From NCBI RefSeq assembly GCF_017348835.2, contig NZ_CP071375.1: a stretch of DNA of 64,000 nt. The stretch is one strand, 5' to 3'. A program made the position numbers and the translations under genes. This DNA is from Escherichia coli (GTDB lineage Bacteria; Pseudomonadota; Gammaproteobacteria; Enterobacterales; Enterobacteriaceae). A model generated the notes under the pieces. The model worked only from the letters and a program-made list of their open reading frames with translations, searched no databases and was not told where the DNA came from. Positions 17,941 through 21,108 of this stretch are shown piece by piece; position 1 is the stretch's first letter, and the number at the start of each line of letters is the position of its first letter.

Positions 17941-18246
<306 letters not shown>

Positions 18247-18319
18247 TCAGGCGGCGATTTTAGCATGATCCGCAGATGCTAACGTAATTGTCAGTCAGGG
18301 AGGGGCTGGTACATATATG

Positions 18320-18345
18320 GCAAAAGCCCGGAAAATCCGGGCTTC
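18320..18345 (-). terminator. Probable terminator downstream of yifN
   Basis: On the minus strand, GAAGCCCGGATTTTCCGGGCTTTTG: a hairpin plus a short T tract about 75 nt after the yifN stop. Confidence 0.55.
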
Positions 18346-18420
18346 GCAGGTCCCTCAAGGGGAGAAAACTTAGGGCCTCTATGGGCTACAAAGTCATTAT
18401 CAGGGATGGTGATTTTATTG

Positions 18421-18870
18421 TCAATTTATGAGCGATATGGCATTGATTGACTTGATGACCGCCCTCTGTATGTCTGCAACCAACTCATGTGGCAAACATT
18501 GATTAAGATATCCTCTGTAAGTTCTTGCTCTGTTTAATCTGTTTCGACTGACTTGTTGTACCAGGTCGGCTTTGGCCCAACGAATCTGCTGATCAAAGAA
18601 TTGCAGGTCATTGATAATATTACTGGCTATTTCAACATGCATTCCACGATTTAACTTGTCATGGTCGCGAGTGGTTGATAATGGAACGACGATACATGCG
18701 TTGCCATTAATTTTTCCGTTGAGCACGACAACTAACCTGTTTTTTATCATTTCAGGAGGAATGCGGCCATCGTAATACGTGGTGCTGAACGGTCCATTTT
18801 GGCTAACAGGATAGTTACCAAAGTTGCATTCCAGTATTTCACCAACCTTAGGGCTGAAATTAATCGCCAC
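18421..18870 (-). CDS. yifN: Intact PemK/MazF-like protein YifN, with no adjacent antitoxin gene
   Basis: ORF 18421-18912. A GTG at 18870 lies 7 nt after AAGGAGAGG and gives 149 aa (M)AINFSPKVGEILECNFG...NRLVVVLN...CIVVPLSTT. This is the MazF/PemK-like pattern G-E-I-x-x-x-F, [RK]-x-x-V-V-L, V-V-P-x-[ST]-T. Confidence 0.8.
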   Translation of the reverse strand: MAINFSPKVGEILECNFGNYPVSQNGPFSTTYYDGRIPPEMIKNRLVVVLNGKINGNACIVVPLSTTRDHDKLNRGMHVEIASNIINDLQFFDQQIRWAKADLVQQVSRNRLNRARTYRGYLNQCLPHELVADIQRAVIKSINAISLIN

Positions 18871-19024
18871 GAGTAAACCTCTCCTTAGTAAACTCTGAAA
18901 AAGTAATAACACAACGTTACGACCCGATATTTCCTAAGTCTAATGGATTCACGATGAACTCCGATTTCGGTTTTCTCTCTCTGATTTAAACATCCGCAGC
19001 CAACCGGTTAGCGGCTTACACGCG

Positions 19025-19053
19025 GTCACATTCAAATGCGATTCTGCTACAAT
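19025..19053 (+). promoter_or_regulatory. Candidate rep promoter
   Basis: GTCACA at 19025-19030 and an extended -10 TGCTACAAT ending at 19053, with a 17 nt spacer. About 35 nt upstream of the rep ATG. Confidence 0.45.
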
Positions 19054-19086
19054 CCTCCCCCCGTTCGAAGATTGAGCAATACACCT

Positions 19087-21108
19087 ATGCGTCTAAACCC
19101 CGGCCAACAACAAGCTGTCGAATTCGTTACCGGCCCCTGCCTGGTGCTGGCGGGCGCGGGTTCTGGTAAAACTCGTGTTATCACCAATAAAATCGCCCAT
19201 CTGATCCGCGGTTGCGGTTATCAGGCGCGGCACATTGCGGCGGTGACCTTTACTAATAAAGCAGCGCGCGAGATGAAAGAGCGTGTAGGGCAGACGCTGG
19301 GGCGCAAAGAGGCGCGTGGGCTGATGATCTCCACTTTCCATACGTTGGGGCTGGATATCATCAAACGCGAGTATGCGGCGCTTGGGATGAAAGCGAACTT
19401 CTCGTTGTTTGACGATACCGATCAGCTTGCTTTGCTTAAAGAGTTGACCGAGGGGCTGATTGAAGATGACAAAGTTCTCCTGCAACAACTGATTTCGACC
19501 ATCTCTAACTGGAAGAACGATCTCAAAACTCCGGCGCAGGCGGCGGCAGAGGCAAAGGGCGAGCGGGATCGTATTTTTGCCCATTGTTATGGGCTGTATG
19601 ATGCACACCTGAAAGCCTGTAACGTTCTCGACTTCGATGACCTGATTTTATTGCCGACGTTGCTGCTGCAACGCAATGAAGAAGTACGCGAACGCTGGCA
19701 GAACAAAATTCGCTACCTGCTGGTGGATGAGTATCAGGACACCAACACCAGCCAGTATGAACTGGTGAAACTGCTGGTGGGCAGCCGCGCGCGCTTTACC
19801 GTGGTGGGTGACGATGACCAGTCGATCTACTCCTGGCGCGGTGCACGTCCGCAAAACCTGGTGCTGCTGAGTCAGGATTTTCCGGCGCTGAAGGTGATTA
19901 AGCTTGAGCAGAACTATCGCTCTTCCGGGCGTATTCTGAAAGCGGCGAACATCCTGATCGCCAATAACCCGCACGTCTTTGAAAAGCGTCTGTTCTCCGA
20001 ACTGGGTTATGGCGCGGAGCTAAAAGTATTAAGCGCGAATAACGAAGAACATGAGGCTGAGCGCGTTACTGGCGAGCTGATCGCCCATCACTTCGTCAAT
20101 AAAACGCAGTACAAAGATTACGCCATTCTTTATCGCGGTAACCATCAGTCGCGGGTGTTTGAAAAATTCCTGATGCAAAACCGCATCCCGTACAAAATAT
20201 CTGGTGGTACGTCGTTTTTCTCTCGTCCTGAAATCAAGGACTTGCTGGCTTATCTGCGCGTGCTGACTAACCCGGACGATGACAGCGCATTTCTGCGTAT
20301 CGTTAACACGCCGAAGCGAGAGATTGGCCCGGCTACGCTGAAAAAGCTGGGTGAGTGGGCGATGACGCGCAATAAAAGCATGTTTACCGCCAGCTTTGAT
20401 ATGGGCCTGAGTCAGACGCTTAGCGGACGTGGTTATGAAGCATTGACCCGCTTCACTCACTGGTTGGCAGAAATCCAGCGCCTGGCGGAGCGGGAGCCGA
20501 TTGCTGCGGTGCGTGATCTGATCCATGGCATGGATTATGAATCCTGGCTGTACGAAACATCGCCCAGCCCGAAAGCCGCCGAAATGCGCATGAAGAACGT
20601 CAACCAACTGTTTAGCTGGATGACGGAGATGCTGGAAGGCAGCGAACTGGATGAGCCGATGACGCTCACCCAGGTGGTGACGCGCTTTACTTTGCGCGAC
20701 ATGATGGAGCGTGGTGAGAGTGAAGAAGAGCTGGATCAGGTGCAACTGATGACTCTCCACGCGTCGAAAGGGCTGGAGTTTCCTTATGTCTACATGGTCG
20801 GTATGGAAGAAGGGTTTTTGCCGCACCAGAGCAGCATCGATGAAGATAATATCGATGAGGAGCGGCGGCTGGCCTATGTCGGCATTACCCGCGCCCAGAA
20901 GGAATTGACCTTTACGCTGTGTAAAGAACGCCGTCAGTACGGCGAACTGGTGCGCCCGGAGCCGAGCCGCTTTTTGCTGGAGCTGCCGCAGGATGATCTG
21001 ATTTGGGAACAGGAGCGCAAAGTGGTCAGCGCCGAAGAACGGATGCAGAAAGGGCAAAGCCATCTGGCGAATCTGAAAGCGATGATGGCGGCAAAACGAG
21101 GAAAATAA
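19087..21108 (+). CDS. rep: Rep ATP-dependent DNA helicase (SF1)
   Basis: The internal start [31 protein letters not shown] gives 673 aa. Motifs [13 protein letters not shown] and YRS. Confidence 0.96.

What the first reader, a model, noticed from the sequence alone, without database searches (positions are those of the whole stretch)
18421..18870. Intact, stand-alone PemK/MazF-like gene yifN with no antitoxin partner and a C-terminal extension
**Toxin-like core.** The ORF has a strong SD (AAGGAGAGG) and a GTG start. It shows the MazF/PemK SH3-barrel signature: GEILECNF..., NRLVVVLN, CIVVPLSTT.

**No partner.** The 165 nt upstream, up to the rep promoter, contains only 11-14 codon ORFs. The roughly 200 nt downstream, up to ppiC, contains nothing plausible. 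No MazE/PemI-type antitoxin gene is therefore present.

**Size and insertions.** At 149 aa it is about 35-40 aa longer than canonical MazF. It has an insertion after the first strand (YPVSQNGPFSTTYYDGRIPPEM) and a helical-looking C-terminal tail (...RNRLNRARTYRGYLNQCLPHELVADIQRAVIKSINAISLIN).

**Status elsewhere.** I recall yifN being annotated as a disrupted pseudogene in K-12, whereas here it is intact.

**Open question.** An orphan toxin-fold protein wedged between ppiC and rep is either domesticated (non-toxic), self-neutralised by its tail, or controlled in trans.
Basis: partly seen in the sequence, partly recalled or inferred. Interest (0 to 1): 0.45.

Follow-up and report, generated by a model that had tools for sequence, protein, structure and literature searches.

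The report
MazF-like toxin with hidden RNA partner
The "orphan" toxin-like gene yifN is real and intact, but it is not alone: an unannotated ~80-base small RNA gene sits just after it and accompanies its relatives across many bacteria and plasmids, probably as an RNA antidote.

Summary

- **C-terminal extension.** There is none. The tail is the canonical MazF C-terminal helix. The extra length sits mainly in the beta1-beta2 loop.
- **Stand-alone gene.** No protein antitoxin exists, but about 30 nt after the stop codon lies a small-RNA gene at 18311-18390 (minus). It has a near-consensus sigma-70 promoter overlapping the stop codon, two short hairpins with C-W-U-x-G-A loops, and an intrinsic terminator.

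This RNA was detected earlier by RNA-seq and northern blot in K-12 (ecr3777) with no function assigned. It has no Rfam family and no RefSeq annotation.

A covariance model finds it beside 46 of 51 intact yifN homologues, in Gamma- and Betaproteobacteria and on plasmids such as pCAR1. The other five are one truncated contig and four Pasteurellaceae loci with a divergent version. The RNA survives where yifN is broken, and upstream flanks are not conserved. Antisense pairing to yifN mRNA is not enriched.

Most likely this is a type III-like toxin-antitoxin module. The antitoxin role is inferred.

The parts
18421..18870 (-). yifN coding sequence: 149 aa, GTG start, TAA stop. A PemK/MazF-fold protein and predicted endoribonuclease toxin.
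   Evidence: ORF; Pfam PF02452, 42.3 bits against a cutoff of 23.1; RefSeq WP_000996686.1, 100% identical locus; AlphaFold2 model with MazF as top structural matches; invariant E40, R45, S65 align to MazF E24, R29, T52.
18878..18886 (-). Shine-Dalgarno AAGGAGAGG of yifN, 7 nt before the GTG start.
   Evidence: Read directly from the sequence. Ribo-RET ribosome profiling reports initiation signals at the annotated yifN start and at an upstream in-frame start (bioRxiv 10.1101/520783).
18396..18424 (-). Sigma-70-type promoter of the small RNA: -35 TTGACA (18424-18419), 17-nt spacer, -10 GATAAT (18401-18396). The -35 hexamer overlaps the yifN stop codon.
   Evidence: 11 of 12 consensus matches. 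The promoter is conserved in the same register in 48 homologous loci: mean best score 9.46/12 against 7.10 for shuffles, 36 of 48 score at least 9, and 34 of 48 have TTGACA with at most 1 mismatch.
18311..18390 (-). Small RNA gene of about 80 nt. It corresponds to the K-12 transcript ecr3777 (MG1655 3957925-3958004). The covariance-model hit spans 18311-18395.
   Evidence: Romero et al. 2014 Table S5 and Fig. 7 give RNA-seq and northern detection, also seen by Conway 2014. Coordinates were transferred using (+/-1 nt). The 5' end falls 6 nt after the -10 hexamer. CM R1 scores 80.7 bits, E = 1e-18, and this is the only hit in the 64-kb window. The sequence is present in 4015 of 5426 E. coli genomes and lies under no annotated feature in the 10 sampled hits.
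18375..18386 (-). Hairpin 1 of the RNA: GCC[CAUAGA]GGC.
   Evidence: All 48 sequences are paired. Stems are GCC/GGC in 38, GCC/GGU in 4, GGC/GCC in 3 and CCC/GGG in 3. In Pasteurellaceae the stem is CGG/CCG or CGC/GCG with the same loop.
18351..18363 (-). Hairpin 2 of the RNA: UCCC[CUUGA]GGGA.
   Evidence: All 4 pairs show changes on both sides in some sequences (for example UUCC/GGAA in Xenorhabdus and Photorhabdus, GUCC/GGAC in Shewanella). 85.6% of cells are paired.
18322..18345 (-). Intrinsic terminator hairpin (GAAGCCCGGA-UUU-UCCGGGCUUU) with a U-tract. It ends both the small RNA and any yifN read-through transcript.
   Evidence: The stem has 10 pairs, 8 of them with changes on both sides, and 99.2% of cells are paired.
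18235..19070 (.). Presence/absence cassette of about 835 bp that carries yifN, the RNA gene and the sequences immediately upstream of ppiC and rep. It is replaced by about 74 nt in E. coli genomes that lack yifN (for example JJ1887).
   Evidence: 3982 of 5426 genomes carry it. In the others the match ends 12 nt upstream of the ppiC ATG.

Best explanation
yifN and the small RNA gene immediately downstream form one two-gene module, best described as a type III-like toxin-antitoxin system.

**The protein.** YifN is a MazF/PemK-fold endoribonuclease. It has an enlarged beta1-beta2 loop and keeps the MazF active-site equivalents E40, R45 and S65.

**The RNA.** It is transcribed from its own strong promoter, which overlaps the yifN stop codon. 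It is probably also carried as the 3' end of the yifN mRNA. It consists of two similar short hairpins with C-W-U-x-G-A loops, followed by a terminator.

**Proposed mechanism.** The RNA binds YifN directly, one hairpin per subunit of a MazF-like dimer, and keeps the RNase inactive. When synthesis of the unstable RNA stops (plasmid loss, phage-induced shut-off, stress), free YifN cleaves cellular RNA.

**Shown**
- The fold and the conserved residues.
- The RNA exists (RNA-seq and northern blot in K-12).
- Its structure is conserved.
- It is tightly and specifically linked to the yifN family.
- There is no protein partner.
- There is no enriched antisense complementarity to yifN mRNA.

**Inferred**
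- Toxicity and RNase activity.
- Direct RNA-protein binding and its stoichiometry.
- The biological role.
For: **Protein**
- Pfam PemK_toxin, E = 9.4e-11.
- AlphaFold2 model with pLDDT 77.8.
- The top 50 Foldseek hits in the PDB are all MazF.
- hhalign against MazF/Kid/YdcE/ChpBK puts YifN E40, R45 and S65 on MazF E24, R29 and T52. All three are invariant in 23 diverse homologues.
- The gene is translated: Ribo-RET shows initiation signals.

**RNA**
- The promoter matches 11 of 12 consensus positions and a terminator follows.
- A 79-nt transcript was mapped and northern-validated in MG1655.
- Its 5' end lies 6 nt after the -10 hexamer.

**Linkage**
- Downstream 400-nt flanks share a 75-90-nt element at 75-90% identity from E. 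coli to Pseudomonas, Legionellaceae, Cupriavidus, Roseateles and Herbaspirillum, although the proteins are only 45-60% identical.
- Upstream flanks are conserved only within genera.
- CM R1 finds the RNA next to 46 of 51 intact homologues. The other 5 are one contig that ends 59 nt after the gene and four Pasteurellaceae loci. Those four carry a divergent promoter, two CGG[CAUAGA]CCG-type hairpins and a terminator.
- The RNA is also present after the gene on pCAR1 (86.9 bits) and on an E. coli IncX1/IncF plasmid (85.5 bits), in prophage-like contigs, and in a sister clade that lacks the loop insertion.
- Linkage survives rearrangement. The RNA is convergent in a Shewanella plasmid. It is divergent and upstream, once or twice, in Massilia and Herbaspirillum.

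**Structure**
- 96.3% of cells are paired, against 83.9% in shuffles (0 of 500 shuffles reach this) and 29-62% when partners are slid.
- 14 of 17 pairs show double changes.

**Decay pattern expected of an antitoxin**
- The RNA is intact where yifN is frameshifted (K-12), broken by a stop or frameshift (Shigella L004, E. coli L032, Serratia L023) or destroyed by IS21 (L163).
- No intact yifN lacks an RNA.
- 4015 E. coli genomes carry the RNA and 3982 carry the near-complete region.

**Antisense action is not supported**
- Duplex energies to the cognate yifN mRNA (the translation-initiation region, the whole mRNA, and -200 to +20) do not differ from shuffles. Mean z is -0.39, +0.30 and -0.04.
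Against: - Nothing experimental shows that YifN is toxic, that it cleaves RNA, or that the RNA binds or neutralises it.
- The residue equivalences rest on a low-probability hhalign alignment (14.5%) plus the Pfam match, not on a superposed structure.
- Hairpins 1 and 2 are only 3-4 bp long and largely invariant in sequence. The covariation count was made on an alignment fitted to the model and is dominated by the terminator.
- The RNA is still made in K-12, where YifN is dead. It might therefore have an independent trans-acting function.
- In several small plasmids the yifN-like gene directly follows a replication or primase gene. This leaves room for a role in plasmid biology other than addiction.
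- The arrangement differs from every described type III system: the RNA is downstream, has its own promoter, and is not a long direct-repeat array.
- The paper library lacks most subscription journals, so an existing description may have been missed.
Confidence: 0.55

Rival explanations
1. YifN and the RNA form a non-toxic ribonucleoprotein. YifN would be a processing or binding factor for a small RNA whose real job lies elsewhere, such as trans-regulation of other mRNAs or control of plasmid replication or copy number.
For: - The linkage data show coupling but not its sign.
- yifN-like genes lie directly after replication or primase genes on small plasmids: pFS39, a Shewanella plasmid, and a winged-helix ORF in Herbaspirillum.
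- The RNA is kept and expressed in K-12 although yifN is a pseudogene.
Against: - The active-site equivalents of a toxin RNase are invariant.
- Most copies are chromosomal or on large plasmids, far from replication genes.
- Repeated inactivation of the protein with retention of the RNA is the asymmetry expected for a toxin and antitoxin, not for an obligate RNP.
- The gene shows presence/absence and frequent pseudogenisation within E. coli.
Confidence: 0.17
2. This is a type I-like system. The small RNA base-pairs with yifN mRNA and blocks its translation or triggers its decay, without touching the protein.
For: - RNA antitoxins of non-peptide toxins that act by base pairing exist (RalR/RalA, SymE/SymR; from my own knowledge).
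- The pyrimidine-rich stretch UUUUCUCCCC could pair with the SD AAGGAGAGG.
- A 15-nt, 80% complementary match exists between the hairpin 2 region and window 18970-18984, upstream of yifN (I3).
Against: - Predicted duplexes with the cognate mRNA are no stronger than with shuffled mRNA in 42-43 loci. Mean z is -0.39 for the translation-initiation region, +0.30 for the whole mRNA and -0.04 for -200 to +20. At most 1 locus has z below -2, and the sites are inconsistent.
- The upstream regions that would hold a target are not conserved between genera, whereas the RNA is.
- The Pasteurellaceae versions are not pyrimidine-rich.
- The RNA is on the same strand as yifN in nearly all loci, so it is not a cis-antisense RNA.
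Confidence: 0.1
3. One reading: a truly orphan, domesticated or decaying MazF-like gene. The conserved downstream element would be only its 3' UTR and terminator, or a passenger sequence of the mobile cassette.
For: - No protein antitoxin is present.
- The gene decays often in E. coli and Shigella.
- It is missing from 27% of E. coli genomes.
Against: - A terminator alone does not explain a conserved promoter in a fixed register, or two conserved hairpins with compensatory changes.
- Nor does it explain an independent transcript seen by northern blot, or relocation of the RNA to other positions and orientations while it stays linked to the gene.
- The RNA is better conserved in sequence than the protein.
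- The family-wide invariant residues argue against decay of the protein outside E. coli.
Confidence: 0.05

Closest known systems
MazEF / PemIK (Kid-Kis) type II toxin-antitoxin systems
   Same: - The toxin has the same fold and belongs to the same Pfam family, PF02452.
- Equivalents of MazF E24, R29 and T52 are conserved.
- The modules are found on plasmids, in prophage-like contigs and in chromosomes, and often decay.
   Different: - There is no MazE/PemI-type protein antitoxin gene upstream or anywhere adjacent.
- The protein is about 38 aa longer, mostly through an insertion of about 16 residues in the beta1-beta2 loop, which in MazF covers the active site and is displaced by MazE (that role is from my own knowledge).
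- The partner gene is an RNA lying downstream.
Type III toxin-antitoxin systems ToxIN, CptIN and TenpIN (AbiQ)
   Same: - A terminator sets the ratio of RNA to toxin transcript.
- The systems are carried on plasmids and prophages.
   Different: - The toxin belongs to the MazF/PemK sequence family, not to ToxN, CptN or TenpN.
- The RNA lies downstream with its own promoter overlapping the stop codon, instead of upstream as an array of 34-36-nt direct repeats.
- The units are two (in Roseateles three) 3-4-bp hairpins rather than pseudoknot-forming repeats.
- Processing and binding are untested.
AvcID (type III-like: deaminase toxin with the small RNA AvcI)
   Same: It is a precedent for a non-repeat small RNA that neutralises a protein toxin post-translationally and is encoded next to it (PMC10511110 abstract).
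   Different: The toxin is an unrelated enzyme (dCMP/dCTP deaminase), and the RNA has a different size and position.
sRNA ecr3777 of E. coli K-12 (Romero et al. 2014; Conway et al. 2014)
   Same: It is the same transcript: ppiC-yifO intergenic region, minus strand, 79 nt, validated by northern blot.
   Different: It is listed only as a new small RNA with no function, no family and no link to yifN. Its conservation beyond E. coli and its hairpin architecture are not described there.

Membership tests
PemK/MazF toxin family (Pfam PF02452) | Sequence match to the family profile above the curated threshold | tested here: met
   42.3 bits against a gathering score of 23.1, E = 9.4e-11. Residues 38-141 align to profile positions 15-108 of 109.
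PemK/MazF toxin family (Pfam PF02452) | SH3-like beta-barrel with a C-terminal helix (Kid/MazF/CcdB fold) | tested here: met
   [not shown]
PemK/MazF toxin family (Pfam PF02452) | Conserved active-site residues (E. coli MazF E24, R29, T52) | tested here: met
   hhalign of A1 against A5 aligns E40, R45 and S65 to them (low probability, 14.5%). S65 aligned to T52 is also seen. All three are invariant in A1.
PemK/MazF toxin family (Pfam PF02452) | Sequence-specific endoribonuclease activity that arrests growth | not testable with these tools
   No experimental paper on YifN was found.
Type II MazEF/PemIK module | Adjacent, co-transcribed protein antitoxin gene (MazE/PemI, AbrB or RHH type) | tested here: not met
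   No ORF family recurs next to yifN in 66 loci; the largest has 6 members. Upstream 300 nt are not conserved between genera by blastn or tblastx.
Type III toxin-antitoxin systems | Non-coding RNA gene genetically linked to and co-inherited with the toxin gene | tested here: met
   The CM hits beside 46 of 51 intact homologues, and divergent versions are present in four of the other five; the fifth is a contig cut 59 nt after the gene, with only a partial hit. Both genes are absent together from B2 E. coli.
Type III toxin-antitoxin systems | Antitoxin encoded as tandem direct repeats upstream of the toxin, separated from it by a terminator | tested here: not met
   The RNA is downstream, has its own promoter, and consists of two short hairpin modules plus a terminator.
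Type III toxin-antitoxin systems | Toxin belongs to the ToxN/AbiQ, CptN or TenpN families | tested here: not met
   [not shown]
Type III toxin-antitoxin systems | RNA binds the toxin protein directly and inhibits it; the toxin processes the RNA | not testable with these tools
   Inferred only, from the absence of antisense complementarity and from the two-module architecture.
Type I toxin-antitoxin systems | Antitoxin RNA complementary to the toxin mRNA | tested here: not met
   Duplex energies equal those of shuffled controls in 42-43 loci.
Any Rfam 15 RNA family | Match to a curated covariance model | tested here: not met
   In the window, no match has E below 0.4. At gathering score, nothing lies on the element in 19 loci from other genera.

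The most novel reading that the evidence does not exclude
YifN and its downstream RNA define a new, widespread family of toxin-antitoxin systems. In it, a genuine MazF/PemK-family RNase is neutralised by a small two-hairpin RNA rather than by a MazE-like protein. The RNA is made from a promoter embedded in the end of the toxin gene. The family would bridge type II MazEF and type III ToxIN-like systems. It is carried by about three quarters of E. coli genomes and by plasmids such as pCAR1.
Probability: 0.5. Interest if true: 0.8.

Novelty: new variant of a known kind. Interest (0 to 1): 0.7.

Why it matters
- MazF/PemK toxins are the textbook type II toxins, defined by a protein antitoxin. A MazF-family clade that has swapped the protein for a small RNA would show that the class of antitoxin is evolutionarily interchangeable on one toxin scaffold. 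It would link type II and type III systems.
- It would give a function to an unannotated E. coli small RNA that was northern-validated in K-12 and is present in 4015 of 5426 complete genomes.
- It would explain how an expressed, catalytically intact MazF-like gene can sit alone in genomes and on conjugative plasmids.
- Genes annotated as type II toxin with no antitoxin should be checked for RNA partners.
- The system is small (about 650 bp) and directly testable in E. coli.

Tried and rejected
- **C-terminal extension or self-inhibiting tail.** Rejected. Pfam and hhalign align the tail to the MazF C-terminus, and the model shows the canonical helix.
- **Hidden protein antitoxin.** I clustered all ORFs of at least 60 aa around 66 homologous loci and compared upstream flanks by blastn and tblastx. 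Nothing recurs. Several small ORFs just downstream turned out to be the RNA read as protein.
- **Database look-ups with no result.** NCBIfam, PADLOC and a PDB sequence search gave no hits. PHROGs gave only a family of unknown function, phrog_15698. Rfam gave nothing.
- **Single-sequence hhalign against E. coli MazF.** Too weak to use alone (probability 2.6%). I repeated it with a four-member MazF/Kid/YdcE/ChpBK alignment. MazF was verified against the PDB.
- **Long-range pairing between the two hairpin regions.** This is the MFE fold of the E. coli RNA alone. I rejected it in favour of two local hairpins, because compensatory changes in Xenorhabdus, Photorhabdus, Shewanella and Aeromonas fit the local stems.
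- **Fishing for the RNA without yifN.** I scanned metagenome and viral contigs with the 16-mer GTAGCCCATWGAGGCC. Of the 138 loci, 113 were scored with the CM. Most of these were chance matches (CM at most about 25 bits or none, no yifN). All 15 real hits (CM at least 68 bits) are E. coli-like and lie after yifN, or after an IS21 that replaced it.
- **Antisense mechanism.** Three duplex-energy tests were negative.
- **Literature.** Seven searches found no functional study of YifN and no description of the RNA-toxin pairing.
Full report
**1. The observation**

It lies at window 18421-18870 on the minus strand, with a GTG start, a TAA stop and 149 codons. The SD AAGGAGAGG sits 7 nt upstream. The window is E. 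coli: ilvC, ppiC (17941-18222, minus), yifN, rep (ATG at 19087), gppA.

A pig isolate (PE164) is 100% identical over 901 nt. There the gene is annotated "type II toxin-antitoxin system PemK/MazF family toxin", WP_000996686.1. In K-12 the gene is a pseudogene (b3777). A single-base deletion at nt 210 gives a stop at codon 73.

About 27% of complete E. coli genomes (for example ST131 JJ1887) lack the gene altogether. There ppiC and rep are only 86 bp apart. Window 18235 to about 19070 is replaced by about 74 unrelated or weakly related bases.

**2. The protein**

- Pfam PemK_toxin scores 42.3 bits against a cutoff of 23.1.
- An AlphaFold2 model built on 23 homologues has pLDDT 77.8 and pTM 0.73. 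It shows the barrel strands and one long C-terminal helix at residues 128-148.
- The best 50 Foldseek matches in the PDB are all MazF toxins.

The Pfam alignment runs to residue 141 and profile position 108 of 109. hhalign pairs residue 135 with MazF residue 103. The "C-terminal extension" is therefore the normal end of the fold, at most about 6 residues longer. The extra length is mainly an insertion of about 16 residues after strand 1, in the beta1-beta2 loop (residues 18-33; low pLDDT and variable in sequence). Smaller loop insertions account for the rest.

hhalign against an alignment of MazF, Kid, YdcE and ChpBK places YifN E40, R45 and S65 on MazF E24, R29 and T52. MazF was verified against PDB 3nfc/1ub4. 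The other three sequences are from memory. All three YifN residues are invariant in 23 homologues that are 44-85% identical to the window protein. The alignment probability is low (14.5%), so this equivalence is probable rather than proven.

The family is compact. A profile search of 1.84 billion representatives gives 480 clusters at E <= 1e-3 and 30 at E <= 1e-30. JGI calls the members "uncharacterized protein YifN (PemK superfamily)".

Ribosome profiling with retapamulin reports initiation signals at the annotated yifN start and at an upstream in-frame start, so the gene is translated.

**3. No protein partner**

I fetched 66 loci from other species, called ORFs and clustered them. Apart from YifN itself (57 members), no neighbouring family has more than 6 members. 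The 300 nt upstream of the gene are similar only within a genus or between syntenic loci, by both blastn and tblastx.

**4.

Romero et al. 2014 (PMC4681348) list a 79-nt small RNA, ecr3777. It lies in the ppiC-yifO spacer on the same strand as both genes (MG1655 3957925-3958004). It was validated by northern blot and also seen by Conway et al. 2014.

I transferred the coordinates. The RNA maps to window 18311-18390 (+/-1) on the minus strand.

- The consensus scan finds TTGACA-17-GATAAT (11 of 12) at 18424-18396 on that strand. The -35 hexamer overlaps the yifN stop codon, and the mapped 5' end lies 6 nt after the -10 hexamer.
- The 3' end follows the hairpin GCCCGGAUUUUCCGGGC and a U-tract.
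- Neither RefSeq nor Rfam knows this RNA.

**5. The RNA travels with the protein family**

An all-against-all blastn of the 400 nt downstream of the homologues shows one element of 75-90 nt, starting about 30 nt after the stop codon. It is 75-90% identical between E. coli, Superficieibacter, Pantoea, Serratia, Chimaeribacter, Photorhabdus, Xenorhabdus, Intestinirhabdus, Scandinavium, Pseudomonas, Aeromonas, a Legionellaceae MAG, Cupriavidus, Roseateles and Herbaspirillum. The proteins in these loci are only 45-77% identical, so the RNA is better conserved than the protein.

A multiple alignment shows a conserved -35 box, a -10 box, the RNA body and a terminator. I built a covariance model from 28 sequences (R1: 90 positions, 17 base pairs).

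- It finds full-length matches (E from 1e-23 to 1e-3) in 51 of the 66 loci. Nearly all are on the gene's strand, 25-60 nt after the stop.
- It gives exactly one hit in the 64-kb window (18311-18395, 80.7 bits).
- It gives none in the B2 genome that lacks yifN.

Scored against intactness of the gene:

| yifN | RNA found by CM | RNA not found by CM |
|---|---|---|
| intact | 46 | 5 |
| broken or partial | 7 | 8 |

The 5 intact genes without a CM hit are explained as follows.
- One is a contig that ends 59 nt after the gene, with a partial hit cut by the contig end.
- Four are Pasteurellaceae loci. Read by eye, they show the same layout with different stems: a promoter, two hairpins CGG[CAUAGA]CCG or CGC[CUUAGA]GCG, and a terminator.

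The RNA also follows the gene in these places.
- Plasmid pCAR1 (86.9 bits) and an E. coli IncX1/IncF plasmid (85.5 bits). tblastn finds the protein on 120 plasmid records.
- Three prophage-like IMG/VR contigs.
- A sister clade without the loop insertion. There the layout is TTGACG-17-TAGAAT over the stop codon, one hairpin and a terminator.

The linkage survives rearrangement.
- In a 2.2-kb Shewanella plasmid contig the RNA is convergent with the gene.
- In Massilia and Herbaspirillum it lies divergently 800-1000 nt upstream, beyond a winged-helix ORF, once or twice.

**6. Structure of the RNA**

The consensus is hairpin 1 GCC[CAUAGA]GGC, a U-rich linker of 8-24 nt, hairpin 2 UCCC[CUUGA]GGGA, then a 10-bp terminator.

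On the 48-sequence alignment:
- 96.3% of cells are standard pairs, against 83.9% in column shuffles (0 of 500 shuffles reach the observed value) and 29-62% when partners are slid.
- 14 of 17 pairs have changes on both sides.
- Hairpin 1 stems are GCC/GGC (38), GCC/GGU (4), GGC/GCC (3) and CCC/GGG (3), plus CGG/CCG in Pasteurellaceae.
- Both loops usually end in GA.

The two hairpins look like two copies of one module. Roseateles has three.

Two caveats apply. The alignment was fitted to the model, and the two small stems are short and mostly invariant.

The promoter is conserved in a fixed register. The mean best score is 9.46 of 12, against 7.10 for shuffles, and 36 of 48 score at least 9.

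**7. Which mechanism**

*Coupling.* Functional coupling of gene and RNA is strongly supported; I put it at about 0.9.

*Direction.* The RNA is kept where the protein is dead: K-12, Shigella L004, E. coli L032, Serratia L023, and L163, where an IS21 replaced yifN and left the promoter and RNA. No intact gene lacks the RNA. In E. coli, 4015 genomes have the RNA and 3982 have the near-complete region. This asymmetry is what a toxin-antitoxin pair predicts.

*Mode.* Three RNAduplex tests compared pairing with the cognate yifN mRNA against shuffled controls. They covered the translation-initiation region, the whole mRNA, and -200 to +20. Mean z was -0.39, +0.30 and -0.04, with at most one outlier. 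The upstream regions that could hold a target are not conserved. Pairing to yifN mRNA is therefore not supported.

That leaves direct binding to the protein, as in type III systems. Those toxins share this fold. Two like hairpins would suit a MazF-type homodimer. This step is inference.

**8. Comparison with what is known**

- The protein is a member of the PemK/MazF family.
- The module is not a type II MazEF system, because it has no protein antitoxin.
- It does not meet the layout criteria of ToxIN, CptIN or TenpIN. The RNA is downstream, has its own promoter, forms no long repeat array, and the toxin belongs to a different sequence family.
- It works most like a type III system. AvcID is a precedent for a non-repeat RNA antitoxin.

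Seven literature searches found no functional work on YifN and no description of this pairing. The library lacks most subscription journals, so this absence is not conclusive.

**9. Verdict**

The finding as written (orphan toxin, C-terminal tail) is half right. What is there is more interesting: an unannotated, conserved small RNA partner of a MazF-family gene. I rate it a new variant of a known kind, with interest 0.7. My confidence in the complete mechanistic statement is 0.55.

Noticed in passing
window 18235-19070: The whole yifN + RNA cassette is a presence/absence polymorphism in E. coli. In about 1440 of 5426 complete genomes (for example JJ1887) it is replaced by about 74 nt. The cassette also supplies the sequences immediately upstream of ppiC and rep, so those genes have different promoter regions in the two kinds of strain. 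Superficieibacter electus (L005) has the same rep-yifN-ppiC synteny.
   Followed up: partly
window 18871-18912 (minus strand): The reading frame stays open upstream to a GTG at 18912, giving 163 aa. Ribo-RET data report both the annotated start and an upstream in-frame start for yifN, which suggests two isoforms (bioRxiv 10.1101/520783). I did not establish which codon is the upstream start.
   Followed up: no
L163 284-2415: In this metagenome contig an IS21-family element (istA 390 aa, istB 266 aa) sits where yifN should be. The RNA promoter and RNA (81.2 bits) remain intact right after it.
   Followed up: yes
L074 (pFS39) 5221-7058; L036 22-723; L052 3459-4645: On small plasmids and in some Betaproteobacteria, the yifN-like gene directly follows a replication gene. 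This is a primase-C-terminal-domain gene in pFS39 (2-nt gap), a Rep fragment in a Shewanella plasmid (3-nt gap), and a 176-aa winged-helix ORF in Herbaspirillum. The arrangement looks like an operon and hints at a link with replication modules.
   Followed up: partly
L039 4531-4648, L041 4530-4646, L057 4532-4650: The Roseateles versions of the RNA carry three hairpin modules instead of two (an extra GCCC-UUCG-GGG-type hairpin is inserted). The number of modules is therefore variable.
   Followed up: no
L221 345-830: A sister clade of 134-aa proteins lacks the beta1-beta2 insertion but keeps the PEMVKRR-VVVL motif. It also has a promoter over its stop codon (TTGACG-17-TAGAAT), one small hairpin and a terminator downstream.
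   Followed up: partly
window about 18342-18343 (MG1655 3,957,957): An MG1655 line evolved for 1000 generations in simulated microgravity acquired a C-to-T change in the ppiC-yifN spacer (PMC5460176). The site falls in the 5' arm of the small RNA's terminator stem. Its significance is unknown.
   Followed up: no
window 18355-18369 and 18970-18984: A 15-nt inverted repeat, 80% complementary, links the hairpin 2 region of the RNA with a site about 100-115 nt upstream of the yifN start. It could allow sRNA-5'UTR pairing in E. coli only. No such enrichment is seen across the family.
   Followed up: partly
L031 6-108 and 3629-3731; L021 3095-3181; L013 6141-6300; L042 7702-8093: The homologous loci sit in mobile contexts: a ColE1-type plasmid (RNAI) in Aeromonas, a C4 antisense RNA (P1/P7-type prophage) in Pseudomonas, STAXI RNA in Xenorhabdus, and a tmRNA gene about 3 kb away in Pseudomonas batumici.
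   Followed up: no
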